Of a stretch of 64,000 nucleotides of DNA, positions 53,343 to 56,961 are shown piece after piece. This stretch comes from Dehalococcoidia bacterium (lineage in GTDB: Bacteria; Chloroflexota; Dehalococcoidia; Lucifugimonadales; QGNO01). How positions within the stretch are numbered: position 1 is the stretch's first letter; each line of letters starts with the position of its first letter. Made by a program: the position numbers and the translations under genes. Location of the stretch: NCBI GenBank assembly GCA_965116555.1, contig OZ220698.1, forward strand, positions 1,778,160 to 1,842,159, in the 5' to 3' direction. The notes below the pieces were generated by a model. The model was not told the DNA's origin and searched no databases. It worked only from the letters and a program-made list of their open reading frames with translations.

Positions 53343-53378
53343 GGACCGTACGATGTGGAAGTCGTGGACTACCATTGA
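53343..53378 (+). pseudogene. C-terminal remnant of a HigB-type toxin
   Basis: GPYDVEVVDYH* matches the typical HigB C-terminus and abuts higA; no start codon back to an in-frame TAA at 53280. Confidence 0.65.
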
Positions 53379-53392
53379 TGAGGAGTTTAGAC

Positions 53393-53710
53393 ATGAGTGT
53401 GAGCAACGGAATGAGGCCGGTGCACCCCGGAGAGATACTGGGCGAGGAGCTTGAGGAGCTTGGACTATCGGCGAACGCGCTGGCCAAGGCCCTGGACGTG
53501 CCCACGAATCGAGTTACGGCTATCCTGAAGGGGCAGCGCGGGATAACGGCTGACACAGCTCTACGCCTCTCACGCTACTTCGGCACCACGCCCCAACTGT
53601 GGCAGAACCTCCAGAAAGCCTTCGAGTTGCGCGTGGCGGAGATTGAATCCGGGACGCAAATCGAGGCACGGGTGCAACCACGGGAGACGGTGCGGACTGC
53701 TGCGGGATAG
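53393..53710 (+). CDS. higA: HigA family antitoxin (HTH)
   Basis: GAGGAG SD; MRPVHPGEIL.EEL, ALAKAL.V..NRV..IL.GQRGITADTALRL.RYFGTTP..W.NLQ. Confidence 0.95.
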   Translation: MSVSNGMRPVHPGEILGEELEELGLSANALAKALDVPTNRVTAILKGQRGITADTALRLSRYFGTTPQLWQNLQKAFELRVAEIESGTQIEARVQPRETVRTAAG

Positions 53711-55895: not shown

Positions 55896-55959
55896 CGAAG
55901 GTGCTGATGAGACATTATCGCCACGGCGTGTACCGTGGGTGTCATAGGACACCACTAAG

Positions 55960-56000
55960 TTGACAAGGGGCAATTTAAGCTGCGACACTTTAAGCTACGA
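55960..56000 (+). promoter_or_regulatory. Promoter with direct repeat upstream of the Panacea gene
   Basis: TTGACA-18 nt-GACACT; TTTAAGCT(G/A)CGA repeated at 55974 and 55989. Confidence 0.5.
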
Positions 56001-56015
56001 AACCGTGAGGAGATA

Positions 56016-56573
56016 GTGATGACAGTCGACTCTGTCATACAGACTGTATTAGCTAGGGTAGGGGGCGGCGTTCCAGCAACCAAACTAGTCAAGCTGGTTT
56101 ATCTCGTTGACTTCGTGCACTATCAGCATTTCGGGGAAACGGTTACAGGGCTAGAATACCAGTGGGACCATTTTGGCCCCAATGCAGTACAACACCGAAT
56201 CGTCAGAGTGGCTGAAGATCTAGCAGAAAAGCACCAGATCACCTACAGAAAAGTTGACCATTGGCATGGTGGTGTCACGAAGTATTTTGGTGTTGCTCCA
56301 GATTCTGAAATACCAACCCTCTCTGCTACGGCCGAGATGGCGCTGAACGATGTAGTTGCCCGCTACGGAAGACTTTCGGTGAAAGAGATTACGGAAGTCA
56401 GCAAGAAAACCCGCCCGTTCAAGAACGCTTCACAGTATGACATGCTGACCATGGAACAATTGGCGCCTGCGTTAGGCGCTACAGCAGATGACGTTGAAGC
56501 CTATAACCGTGATTTGGCCGAACATGGAGTCCTAACTCTGGAAGAGGTTAAACGTGAGTATGGACTTGAATAG
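56016..56573 (+). CDS. Panacea (DUF4065/SocA/GepA-like) domain antitoxin-like protein
   Basis: KLVKLVYLVDF.HY...GETVTG..Y....FGP, V...YG.LS.KEI.E.S....P. Confidence 0.85.
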   Translation: MMTVDSVIQTVLARVGGGVPATKLVKLVYLVDFVHYQHFGETVTGLEYQWDHFGPNAVQHRIVRVAEDLAEKHQITYRKVDHWHGGVTKYFGVAPDSEIPTLSATAEMALNDVVARYGRLSVKEITEVSKKTRPFKNASQYDMLTMEQLAPALGATADDVEAYNRDLAEHGVLTLEEVKREYGLE

Positions 56574-56861
56574 ATGCGCATTGTATTTGCTCTGTCGGCA
56601 CGGCGGTTCTTGGACGCCGTGCCTAATCACACTCGGAGCAAACTCATCAATGATGCGGTCTGGTTAGCCAGCAACTCGTATCTGACTCCGGATGATACGC
56701 AGATCGTACCGTTCCTTATGCCTCCTCATGTAGGCAAGATTTTCAGAGACGATTTCCATTGGATAATTTTCTATACTGAAGGAGAACGTCTAATAATCGC
56801 CAACATAGGCTGCCTTTCTGAGAAGCCACATTTATGGCGCGCAGAACCTCCCCGAAGCTAA
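56574..56861 (+). CDS. RelE/ParE-like small protein, candidate toxin
   Basis: ATG abuts the upstream stop; MRIVF..SARRFL..., HWIIFY.....LIIANI matches the RelE/ParE secondary-structure pattern. Confidence 0.6.
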   Translation: MRIVFALSARRFLDAVPNHTRSKLINDAVWLASNSYLTPDDTQIVPFLMPPHVGKIFRDDFHWIIFYTEGERLIIANIGCLSEKPHLWRAEPPRS

Positions 56862-56961
56862 GTATCACTCATTGTGCCAAGCCCTTTCTCCACTCTGCGT
56901 AATCCTATAAAGTATTAGAAGCAATATCGGAGCACCCACCAAGCTTTCACAAGGAGGGCCA

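What the first reader, a model, noticed from the sequence alone, without database searches (positions are those of the whole stretch)
55921..56861. Low-GC islet: Panacea-domain protein with a RelB-like tail paired with a RelE/ParE-like gene
Seen: two abutting ORFs in sequence visibly AT-richer than its neighbours (about 50% GC in two hand-counted lines versus about 58% in one tal-pgi line). The first has the DUF4065 core plus an extra tail (ATADDVEAYNRDLAEHGVLTLEEVKREYGLE) that resembles the C-termini of RelB/ParD-type antitoxins; the second is a 95-aa RelE/ParE-fold candidate. The promoter carries a 12-bp direct repeat, with two small hairpins upstream (55921-55953). Established: Panacea domains pair with diverse toxins and some act in phage defence. 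Inference: a hybrid TA module in which the tail neutralises the toxin and the Panacea domain acts as sensor or proteolytic adaptor.
Basis: partly seen in the sequence, partly recalled or inferred. Interest (0 to 1): 0.65.

Follow-up and report, generated by a model that had tools for sequence, protein, structure and literature searches.

The report
Panacea antitoxin with RelE/ParE-fold toxin
A small, AT-rich, horizontally acquired two-gene cassette in a Dehalococcoidia chromosome is very probably a toxin-antitoxin pair of a known design: a Panacea-domain antitoxin whose acidic tail resembles the toxin-gripping end of RelB/ParD antitoxins, followed by an unannotated RelE/ParE-fold toxin.

Summary
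Two abutting ORFs (56019-56573 and 56574-56861, + strand) lie in the lowest-GC stretch of the window (0.489 against a mean of 0.595).

ORF1 has a Panacea/DUF4065 core (Pfam E 2.7e-11) and a conserved acidic tail of about 46 aa. ORF2 matches no curated family. Its AlphaFold model (pLDDT 86) matches only RelE, YoeB, YafQ, ParE and HigB toxins in the PDB. Its family profile aligns to a bona fide PF05016 toxin (hhalign 93%).

The gene pair is conserved in every close relative found, all Dehalococcoidia, and all three parts evolve at dN/dS of about 0.2.

The tail profile aligns to the C-terminal two-thirds of a 71-aa mini-antitoxin that sits upstream of a PF05016 toxin (hhalign 79%, E 1.7e-5). That mini-antitoxin in turn weakly matches the C-terminal parts of solved ParD and RelB chains.

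The design is already published: Panacea paired with RelE/ParE-like toxins, and Panacea with a linear neutralising C-terminal add-on.

New here:
- A small Dehalococcoidia-restricted toxin clade that lacks RelE's canonical arginines.
- A RelB/ParD-like add-on on a Panacea antitoxin.
- The cassette sits inverted between the same flanking genes in a congener, at a site that holds Mrr or DarTG in other congeners.

Verdict: a new member of a known kind, of modest interest.

The parts
55906..56876 (.). Low-GC cassette (971 bp) lying between the MaoC-like dehydratase operon (- strand) and the tal-pgi fusion gene (+ strand). These are the limits of the sequence not shared with the flanks of a congener.
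   Evidence: GC is 0.489, the lowest in the window. In the blastn comparison with L006, flank homology ends at 55905 and resumes at 56877, and the cassette is inverted there.
55921..55952 (+). Two short inverted repeats: CCACGG-N6-CCGTGG and GTGTC-N4-GACAC. Function unknown and probably incidental.
   Evidence: Read from the sequence. Fold z-score is -1.5. Not conserved in relatives.
55960..55965 (+). TTGACA hexamer, a possible -35 element. No consensus -10 lies at 16-18 nt.
55971..56000 (+). Tandem 15-nt direct repeat (13/15 identical) with a 12-mer core TTTAAGCTRCGA present twice. A candidate operator directly upstream of the RBS; specific to this genome.
   Evidence: 2 matches against 0.24 expected. 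Not conserved in related loci.
56007..56012 (+). GAGGAG Shine-Dalgarno-like sequence, 6 nt before the ATG of panA.
   Evidence: Read from the sequence.
56019..56573 (+). panA: a 184-aa Panacea-domain antitoxin (an alternative GTG start lies at 56016).
   Evidence: PF13274 E 2.7e-11. About 24 homologues, with the window's own protein recorded as 184 aa. AF2 pLDDT 82. dN/dS about 0.2.
56088..56420 (+). Panacea (DUF4065) core, residues 24-134 by Pfam. The folded core in the model spans about residues 1-135.
   Evidence: pLDDT about 90 across the core.
56433..56570 (+). Acidic C-terminal tail, residues 139-184 (pI 4.2, net charge -8), with two predicted helices at 156-169 and 174-180. RelB/ParD-like; the proposed toxin-neutralising element.
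   Evidence: Conserved in relatives. pLDDT 50-75. hhalign to a mini-antitoxin family gives 78.6%, E 1.7e-5, and that family's profile aligns to residues 138-184 of the whole protein. pI.
56574..56861 (+). panT: a 95-aa RelE/ParE-fold toxin candidate. Its ATG abuts the panA stop. No record of its product turned up for the window's genome.
   Evidence: No curated family match. AF2 pLDDT 86 with beta-alpha-alpha-beta4 topology. PDB fold matches are all RelE/ParE-superfamily toxins. hhalign to a PF05016 member gives 92.9%. dN/dS about 0.2. The homologue search with ORF2 returned no own-window entry.

Best explanation
This is a type II toxin-antitoxin module of the PanAT kind, carried on a small horizontally acquired cassette.

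Shown:
- panA encodes a Panacea core plus a conserved acidic C-terminal tail of about 46 aa.
- panT, which abuts panA and is probably translationally coupled to it, encodes a RelE/ParE-fold protein.
- The two genes are always found together in close relatives and are under purifying selection.
- The tail is related to the C-terminal part of stand-alone mini-antitoxins of RelE/ParE toxins.

Inferred mechanism:
- The tail is poorly ordered on its own. It folds into two helices on the toxin and blocks it, which is 'linear neutralisation' as in RelB-RelE, ParD-ParE, or the Phd-C tail of C. doosanense PanA.
- The Panacea core is an accessory module. It may control when the tail lets go, acting as a sensor, or it may control antitoxin stability.
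- When PanA is lost or triggered, the toxin arrests growth.

My split on toxin activity: about 55% a ribosome-dependent mRNA endonuclease of the YoeB/YafQ/RelE type with a non-canonical active site, about 30% a ParE-like gyrase poison, about 15% something else.

The 15-nt tandem repeat between the TTGACA and the RBS may be an operator for autoregulation. This last point is speculative.
For: Domain and fold:
- Panacea domain is above the Pfam cut-off.
- The ORF2 model (pLDDT 86) has beta-alpha-alpha-beta4 topology.
- All 50 best PDB matches are RelE/YoeB/YafQ/ParE/HigB toxins. The best is M. tuberculosis RelE1 9g12_B (E 7e-4, TM 0.74). RelE/YoeB/YafQ matches have TM 0.6-0.74 and rmsd about 3, while ParE matches have TM 0.4-0.55.
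- The family profile aligns to a canonical PF05016 toxin at hhalign 92.9%, E 3.8e-7 over 76 columns. 5 of 33 family members weakly hit PF05016.

Pairing and selection:
- Every locus encoding a close toxin relative has a Panacea-plus-tail gene 0-15 nt upstream: the window and the distinct loci among L001-L010, L013 and L014.
- dN/dS is about 0.2 for core, tail and toxin.

Tail:
- The tail has low pLDDT with two helices and is acidic (pI 4.2), against a toxin pI of 8.0.
- Tail profile against mini-antitoxin family A6, which lies directly upstream of a PF05016 toxin: hhalign 78.6%, E 1.7e-5, 43 columns, 40% identity.
- A6 aligns end-to-end with the C-termini of three different PanA proteins.
- A6 weakly matches the NCBIfam RelB-like model and the C-terminal stretches of ParD 6xrw_B and RelB1 9g12_C.

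Precedent:
- Truncating the Phd-C tail abolishes neutralisation by C. doosanense PanA, and the tail fused to SUMO suffices (PMC10440598).
- PanA paired with ParE, HigB-2, YoeB or RelE-like toxins is catalogued (PMC8832971 and its Dataset S1).
Against: - No experiment and no complex prediction was available, so toxicity, binding and the tail's role are all inferred.
- The tail itself hits no RelB, ParD or Phd model directly. The link is transitive, rests on small alignments, and the mini-antitoxin family was picked up from a weak hit (E 0.005 in one of 401 genomes).
- A second set of mini-antitoxins, next to more distant toxin relatives, showed no significant similarity to the tail (hhalign 1.9%).
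- In the alignment to a canonical member, the family lacks RelE's canonical arginines: the R61 position is deleted and the R81 position is Leu. Only L13 and W63 are invariant across the wider family.
- Stand-alone Panacea domains can neutralise toxins directly (PMC10440598).
- Several relatives carry decayed copies (L010, L014, L041).
Confidence: 0.6

Rival explanations
1. It is a PanAT module, but the globular Panacea core neutralises the toxin directly, as in stand-alone PanAs. The tail does something else, such as dimerisation, degradation tagging or operator binding.
For: Ernits et al. 2023 showed direct neutralisation by the Panacea core in B. choladocola PanA. The tail has no direct hit to antitoxin models. 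In L016/L017 a Panacea gene faces its toxin tail-to-tail, so the arrangement is flexible.
Against: The tail is as constrained as the core (dN/dS about 0.2). It co-occurs with this toxin clade in every close locus. It aligns to the C-terminal part of a mini-antitoxin of RelE/ParE toxins. In multidomain PanAs tested so far, the add-on rather than the Panacea core neutralises.
Confidence: 0.2
2. The pair is a decaying or domesticated remnant. ORF2 has the RelE/ParE fold but is no longer a toxin.
For: The canonical RelE catalytic arginines are absent and few polar residues are conserved family-wide. Relatives include a truncated toxin (L010), one with an in-frame TGA (L014) and a fused PanA-toxin remnant (L041). 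No called product for ORF2 turned up in the window's genome, L004 or L005.
Against: Here and in most relatives the frame is intact and evolving at dN/dS about 0.2, with a conserved tight stop-start junction. The close clade keeps H62, E83, P85, H86 and R89. ParE, YoeB, YafQ and HigB toxins also lack RelE's arginines (established knowledge).
Confidence: 0.1
3. The tail is a small helix-turn-helix-like DNA-binding element that represses the operon through the 15-nt direct repeats, and it is not a toxin-binding element.
For: The tail gives weak Pfam hits to HTH_69, HTH_Crp_2 and DnaD_N (E 0.04-0.2). A tandem repeat sits just upstream of the RBS. This PanA has no N-terminal HTH.
Against: All those hits are far below the cut-offs. 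AF2 predicts no helix for the would-be first HTH helix. The repeat is not conserved while the tail is. The tail is strongly acidic (pI 4.2), which does not suit DNA binding.
Confidence: 0.07

Closest known systems
C. doosanense PanA(Phd-C):Doc, the 'linear neutralisation' PanAT system (Ernits et al. 2023, PNAS, PMC10440598)
   Same: A Panacea core decorated with two C-terminal helices that resemble the toxin-binding end of a classical antitoxin. There, truncation and SUMO-fusion experiments showed that the add-on neutralises, not the Panacea core. Antitoxin-then-toxin bicistron.
   Different: There the add-on is Phd-like and the toxin is a Doc kinase. Here the add-on is RelB/ParD-like and the toxin has the RelE/ParE fold. 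Nothing has been tested here.
Predicted PanA:PanT pairs with HigB-2/YoeB/ParE/RelE-like toxins (clusters T14 and T28, and the ParE CDD hits; Kurata et al. 2022, PNAS, PMC8832971, Dataset S1)
   Same: A Panacea antitoxin without an N-terminal domain, next to a small RelE/ParE-superfamily toxin, in antitoxin-then-toxin order. All are untested ('notest' in the dataset).
   Different: The toxin here belongs to a small clade (37 representatives among 1.84 billion proteins). Every relative whose source genome was identified is a Dehalococcoidia, and the protein matches no curated model. I did not check whether the catalogued PanAs carry this tail.
Classical RelBE and ParDE type II systems (e.g. M. 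tuberculosis RelBE1 9g12, P. aeruginosa ParDE 6xrw)
   Same: The toxin fold. An acidic, poorly ordered antitoxin C-terminus that is proposed to wrap the toxin. Tight gene coupling. The tail is linked by profile, through a mini-antitoxin family, to the C-terminal stretches of these antitoxins.
   Different: The antitoxin's N-terminal ribbon-helix-helix DNA-binding domain is replaced by a Panacea domain. RelE's catalytic R61 and R81 equivalents are absent.
SocAB of Caulobacter crescentus (SocA is the founding Panacea-domain antitoxin)
   Same: A Panacea-domain antitoxin.
   Different: SocA acts as a ClpXP adaptor that degrades the toxin SocB, which is unrelated to RelE/ParE (my own knowledge, not tested here). 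Nothing here points to proteolytic adaptation.

Membership tests
PanAT (Panacea-domain antitoxin plus adjacent toxin) | Antitoxin carries the Panacea/DUF4065 domain (PF13274) above the gathering score. | tested here: met
   44.8 bits against a cut-off of 25.7, E 2.7e-11, residues 24-134. It is the single copy in the genome.
PanAT (Panacea-domain antitoxin plus adjacent toxin) | A conserved two-gene neighbourhood with a small partner gene. | tested here: met
   Every locus with a close toxin relative has a Panacea-plus-tail gene 0-15 nt upstream.
PanAT (Panacea-domain antitoxin plus adjacent toxin) | The partner is toxic and is neutralised by PanA through complex formation. | not testable with these tools
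   This needs expression and rescue assays or a multimer prediction. Both structure-prediction jobs went on the two monomers.
RelE/ParE toxin superfamily | The beta-alpha-alpha-beta-beta-beta(-beta) microbial RNase-like fold. | tested here: met
   AF2 pLDDT 86, pTM 0.78. The top 50 Foldseek PDB matches are all members, with TM up to 0.74.
RelE/ParE toxin superfamily | A sequence match to PF05016 (ParE_toxin/RelE) at the curated threshold. | tested here: not met
   The window protein has no hit. Only 5 of 33 family members hit weakly, best E 1.1e-4. At profile level the link exists: hhalign 92.9% to a PF05016 member.
RelE sensu stricto (E. coli RelE-like mRNase) | Catalytic R61, R81 and Y87 equivalents (residue roles from established knowledge). 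| tested here: not met
   In the hhalign alignment to a canonical member, the 'DWR-IVY' Arg falls in a one-residue deletion ('HW-IIFY') and 'GHR' aligns to 'GCL'. Direct hhalign to E. coli RelE, YoeB and YafQ was uninformative, with probability at or below 1.2%.
ParE (gyrase poison) | Inhibition of DNA gyrase, with closest structural similarity to ParE. | tested here: inconclusive
   ParE structures match less well (TM 0.4-0.55, rmsd 6-9) than RelE/YoeB/YafQ. The activity itself cannot be tested here.
RelB/ParD-type antitoxin C-terminal toxin-binding region | Sequence similarity of the tail to RelB/ParD family models or solved chains. | tested here: inconclusive
   The tail gives no direct hit. 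Transitively: tail against mini-antitoxin family A6 gives hhalign 78.6%, E 1.7e-5. A6 against NF048017 (RelB-like) gives E 1.4e-4, below its cut-off. A6 against ParD 6xrw_B residues 51-78 gives E 0.0075, and against RelB1 9g12_C residues 62-85 gives E 0.036.
RelB/ParD-type antitoxin | An N-terminal ribbon-helix-helix DNA-binding domain. | tested here: not met
   The N-terminal 135 residues are a Panacea domain, so this protein is not a RelB/ParD family member. Only its tail resembles one.

The most novel reading that the evidence does not exclude
The RelB/ParD-like tail would be a fourth class of Panacea-associated neutralising add-on, after Phd-C, ZBD and PAD1. The cassette would then be a phage-sensing abortive-infection switch. 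The Panacea core would sense an invader and make the tail release a RelE/ParE-fold toxin that uses a non-canonical active site. The cassette would be exchanged among uncultured Dehalococcoidia through a chromosomal defence hot spot that holds Mrr or DarTG in congeners.
Probability: 0.25. Interest if true: 0.5.

Novelty: new member of a known kind. Interest (0 to 1): 0.3.

Why it matters
The finding adds a clean natural example to the open question of what the Panacea domain does when it is not itself the neutraliser.

Here a Panacea core appears to have replaced the DNA-binding domain of a RelB/ParD-like antitoxin. Simple truncation and tag-fusion experiments could separate the roles of tail and core.

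It also fixes an annotation gap. No called product for the toxin gene turned up in this genome or in two related assemblies, and the protein matches no curated family. It defines a small RelE/ParE clade without the canonical RelE arginines.

Finally, it documents a variable accessory-gene site in an uncultured Chloroflexota genus. None of this would surprise a toxin-antitoxin specialist.

Tried and rejected
- **Curated libraries for ORF2.** Pfam, NCBIfam, PADLOC, PHROGs and the PDB by sequence all gave nothing. Only structure and profile-profile comparison placed it.
- **Fold search of PanA against the PDB.** Only weak PadR/winged-helix matches appeared (E at or above 0.02, TM about 0.3-0.5). 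I take no function from them.
- **Tail against the four small antitoxins next to distant toxin relatives (L015, L018-L020).** hhalign gave 1.9%, so I rejected this as evidence despite a shared '(S/T)L(D/E)ELKR' look.
- **Tail profile against the PDB.** No antitoxin hits.
- **hhalign of the toxin profile to E. coli YafQ, RelE and YoeB single sequences.** Uninformative.
- **Invertase-type switch for the inverted cassette.** No inverted repeats lie at the cassette boundaries, so an active switch is unlikely.
- **Phage or plasmid origin.** No relatives of the toxin in IMG/VR viral contigs, INPHARED phages or PLSDB plasmids.
- **Hairpins as a structured RNA or terminator.** z = -1.5, and no terminator or consensus promoter was called.
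- **The search for related loci with the wide alignment A3.** It failed for lack of a conserved stretch. A1 was used instead.
Full report
**What is there**

The + strand carries two abutting ORFs. The first runs 56016/56019-56573 (185 aa from GTG, 184 aa from ATG). The second runs 56574-56861 (95 aa). The TAG stop of the first is followed directly by the ATG of the second.

The public protein collection holds the first ORF as a 184-aa protein from a 2.37-Mb contig. The homologue search with the second ORF returned no entry for the window's own product. In two related assemblies the gene lists show no called gene at that position either.

The stretch 55906-56876 has GC 0.489. The window mean is 0.595 (sd 0.029 for windows of the same size), so this is the lowest-GC stretch of the 64 kb.

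Other features:
- The 12-mer TTTAAGCTRCGA occurs twice, 15 nt apart, at 55974-55985 and 55989-56000, and nowhere else in the window (0.24 matches expected).
- The two small inverted repeats at 55921-55952 exist, but the region folds no better than shuffles (z = -1.5).
- A TTGACA lies at 55960-55965, but no consensus -10 partner was found on the + strand.
- None of these upstream elements is conserved before the orthologous cassettes.

**ORF1 (PanA)**

Pfam places a SocA_Panacea domain at residues 24-134 (E 2.7e-11, 44.8 bits, cut-off 25.7). About 24 homologues share the full architecture, including the C-terminal ~46 residues.

The AlphaFold2 model (pLDDT 82) has a confident core (about residues 1-135, pLDDT about 90). 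The tail has low confidence (pLDDT 50-75) and contains two helices, at 156-169 and 174-180. The tail is strongly acidic (pI 4.2, charge -8). The PDB fold search returned only weak PadR/winged-helix matches.

**ORF2 (PanT candidate)**

No model in Pfam, NCBIfam, PADLOC or PHROGs matches it, and no PDB sequence does.

The family is small:
- 8 clusters in the 5.8-billion-protein collection.
- 37 representatives at E <= 1e-3 among 1.84 billion proteins.
- Every relative whose genome could be identified is a Dehalococcoidia; a draw of 401 genomes of the window's own class gave matches in 11.
- No relatives in viral contigs, phages or plasmids.

The AlphaFold2 model (pLDDT 86, pTM 0.78) has the order beta-alpha-alpha-beta-beta-beta-beta. 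All 50 best PDB matches are RelE, YoeB, YafQ, HigB or ParE toxins. The best is M. tuberculosis RelE1 (9g12_B, E 7e-4, TM 0.74). RelE/YoeB/YafQ chains fit better (TM 0.6-0.74, rmsd about 3) than ParE chains (TM 0.4-0.55, rmsd 6-9).

At sequence level, 5 of 33 family members weakly hit PF05016. The family profile aligns to a bona fide PF05016 toxin found in L022 with hhalign probability 92.9% (E 3.8e-7, 76 columns).

In that alignment the family has a one-residue deletion where the canonical 'DWR-IVY' arginine sits, and 'GCL' where the canonical member has 'GHR'. By established knowledge of E. coli RelE, these are the R61 and R81 positions. The clade therefore lacks the canonical RelE arginines.

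The close clade conserves H62, N77, E83, P85, H86 and R89. Across the wider family only L13 and W63 are invariant. The fold is settled but the chemistry is not. I lean towards a ribosome-dependent RNase with a His/Glu-type site (YoeB/YafQ-like). ParE-like gyrase poisoning is not excluded.

**Are they a pair?**

Every locus that encodes a close relative of the toxin has a Panacea-plus-tail gene immediately upstream, 0-15 nt away. This holds for the window and for L001-L010, L013 and L014, of which several loci are copies of one place (L001-L003 and L007 carry the same gene pair).

In unsaturated comparisons, dN/dS is about 0.2 for the core, the tail and the toxin alike, so all three are real and constrained.

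Decay also occurs, as is usual for chromosomal toxin-antitoxin modules:
- a truncated toxin in L010;
- an in-frame TGA in L014;
- a fused PanA-tail/toxin remnant in L041.

More distant toxin relatives sit with other partners. Some have small 58-72-aa upstream ORFs (L015, L018-L020). Others have a Panacea gene arranged tail-to-tail (L016, L017) or upstream with a different tail (L021).

**What is the tail?**

The tail alone hits no antitoxin model.

I searched the tail profile across 401 Dehalococcoidia genomes. Strong hits fell only at PanA C-termini. One weak hit (E 0.005) fell on a 71-aa ORF that lies directly upstream of a PF05016 toxin.

I built the small family of that mini-antitoxin (5 sequences) and compared it with the tail profile:
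- hhalign gave 78.6% probability, E 1.7e-5, over 43 columns at 40% identity. This extends well beyond the 21 columns of the initial hit.
- The same profile aligns to residues 138-184 of the whole window PanA (E 3.2e-4).
- It also aligns to the extreme C-termini of the PanA proteins of L016 and L021 (E 7.7e-4 and 3.8e-3).

The mini-antitoxin family in turn matches, weakly:
- the NCBIfam RelB-like model (E 1.4e-4, below its cut-off);
- the C-terminal stretch of P. aeruginosa ParD (6xrw_B, residues 51-78, E 0.0075);
- the C-terminal stretch of M. tuberculosis RelB1 (9g12_C, residues 62-85, E 0.036).

The toxins of those two solved complexes are among the fold matches of ORF2 (9g12_B is the best match).

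The chain is transitive and each link is modest. A second candidate set of mini-antitoxins gave nothing (hhalign 1.9%). Still, the picture is coherent: the tail looks like the toxin-binding half of a RelB/ParD-type antitoxin, grafted onto a Panacea domain in place of the usual DNA-binding domain.

**Mechanism**

The best-supported model is 'linear neutralisation'. The acidic, poorly ordered tail folds on the toxin and blocks it, and Panacea is an accessory domain.

This is what Ernits et al. (2023, PMC10440598) showed for C. doosanense PanA. There the two C-terminal Phd-like helices are necessary, and when fused to SUMO they are sufficient, to neutralise Doc. [quoted passage not shown] For the present locus this is inference. 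No complex prediction or assay was possible.

The rivals are:
- direct neutralisation by the Panacea core;
- a decayed, non-toxic partner;
- a DNA-binding tail (unlikely given its charge).

**Genomic setting**

The cassette lies between a MaoC-like dehydratase operon (- strand) and a 913-aa tal-pgi fusion gene (+ strand).

In a congener (L006/L029), the same flanks are 89-91% identical by blastn, while the cassette is 83% identical. There the cassette lies in the opposite orientation and carries an extra ~390 bp. Cassette dS (0.52-0.60) is somewhat higher than flank dS (0.24-0.48). No inverted repeats lie at the boundaries. The likely history is an old inversion or two independent insertions, not an active switch.

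In other congeners the same site holds different content:
- an Mrr restriction endonuclease;
- a DarT-DarG module;
- an IS3-family transposase;
- unknown genes.

In another Dehalococcoidia the PanAT pair sits inside a type I restriction-modification operon. In another, it sits next to a weakly IS1-like transposase ORF.

This is a variable accessory and defence hot spot, consistent with the low GC.

**Comparison with what is known**

Kurata et al. (2022, PMC8832971) list ParE among the toxin domains paired with Panacea. Their Dataset S1 has untested PanA pairs with HigB-2/YoeB/ParE/RelE-like toxins (clusters T14 and T28). Ernits et al. describe Phd-C, ZBD and PAD1 as the neutralising add-ons of Panacea, with no RelB/ParD-like add-on mentioned.

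The locus is therefore a new member of a known kind. It has a new toxin clade and a probably new add-on within a published design. Earlier notes of this scan report similar PanA plus RelE-fold pairs in other genomes. I treated those as leads only.

**Limits**

- Residue roles in RelE, YoeB and YafQ come from my own knowledge of the literature, not from a tool.

Noticed in passing
window 55906-56876 compared with L006 3044-4298 (same as L029): The whole PanAT cassette lies in opposite orientations between the same two flanking genes (MaoC-like and tal-pgi) in two congeneric genomes. Flanks are 89-91% identical and the cassette 83%. The congener's copy carries about 390 extra bp with a 40-codon ORF and its own promoter-like sequence. 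No boundary inverted repeats were found.
   Followed up: partly
L024-L031 (site upstream of the MaoC-like gene in genus mates): The same chromosomal site holds different cargo in different species of the genus: an Mrr restriction enzyme (L025), DarT/DarG (L027), an IS3-family transposase (L026), a 430-aa unknown protein (L028, L030) and a 186-aa membrane-like protein (L031). It is a defence and accessory-gene hot spot.
   Followed up: partly
window 56574-56861; L004 4556-4843; L005 4574-4852: No called product for the RelE/ParE-fold toxin gene turned up in the window's genome, and the gene lists of two ENA assemblies show nothing at that position. This is a likely systematic annotation gap for this low-GC small gene.
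   Followed up: yes
L041 1432-1863 (-); L010 4001-4225; L014 1483-1767: Decayed copies exist in relatives: one ORF that fuses the end of PanA (core plus tail) to the last ~20 residues of the toxin, a truncated toxin, and a toxin with an in-frame TGA.
   Followed up: partly
L016 and L017 1501-2394: A distant member of the toxin family lies tail-to-tail (convergent, 6-nt overlap) with a Panacea gene whose C-terminus also aligns to the RelB/ParD-like mini-antitoxin profile. A ribbon-helix-helix-like ORF lies on the other side. An earlier scan note (e1-2191079) described a similar tail-to-tail family.
   Followed up: partly
L001/L002/L007 1433-7040: In another Dehalococcoidia the PanAT pair is inserted inside a type I restriction-modification operon, between hsdR and the hsdS/hsdM genes.
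   Followed up: no
L045 978-1707 (-): Two tandem copies of a 71-aa RelB/ParD-like mini-antitoxin, each followed by a ParE/RelE (PF05016) toxin gene. The first toxin appears split by a frameshift.
   Followed up: partly
window 53375-53710 (+): An XRE-type HTH protein (PF01381, E 3.4e-10) that by eye resembles HigA antidotes. Only about 196 nt separate it from the upstream gene, and no ORF of 50 aa or more fits there, so it may be an orphan antitoxin-like regulator.
   Followed up: no
No terminator was called between them, so read-through from the cassette is possible. I ran no family search on it.
   Followed up: no
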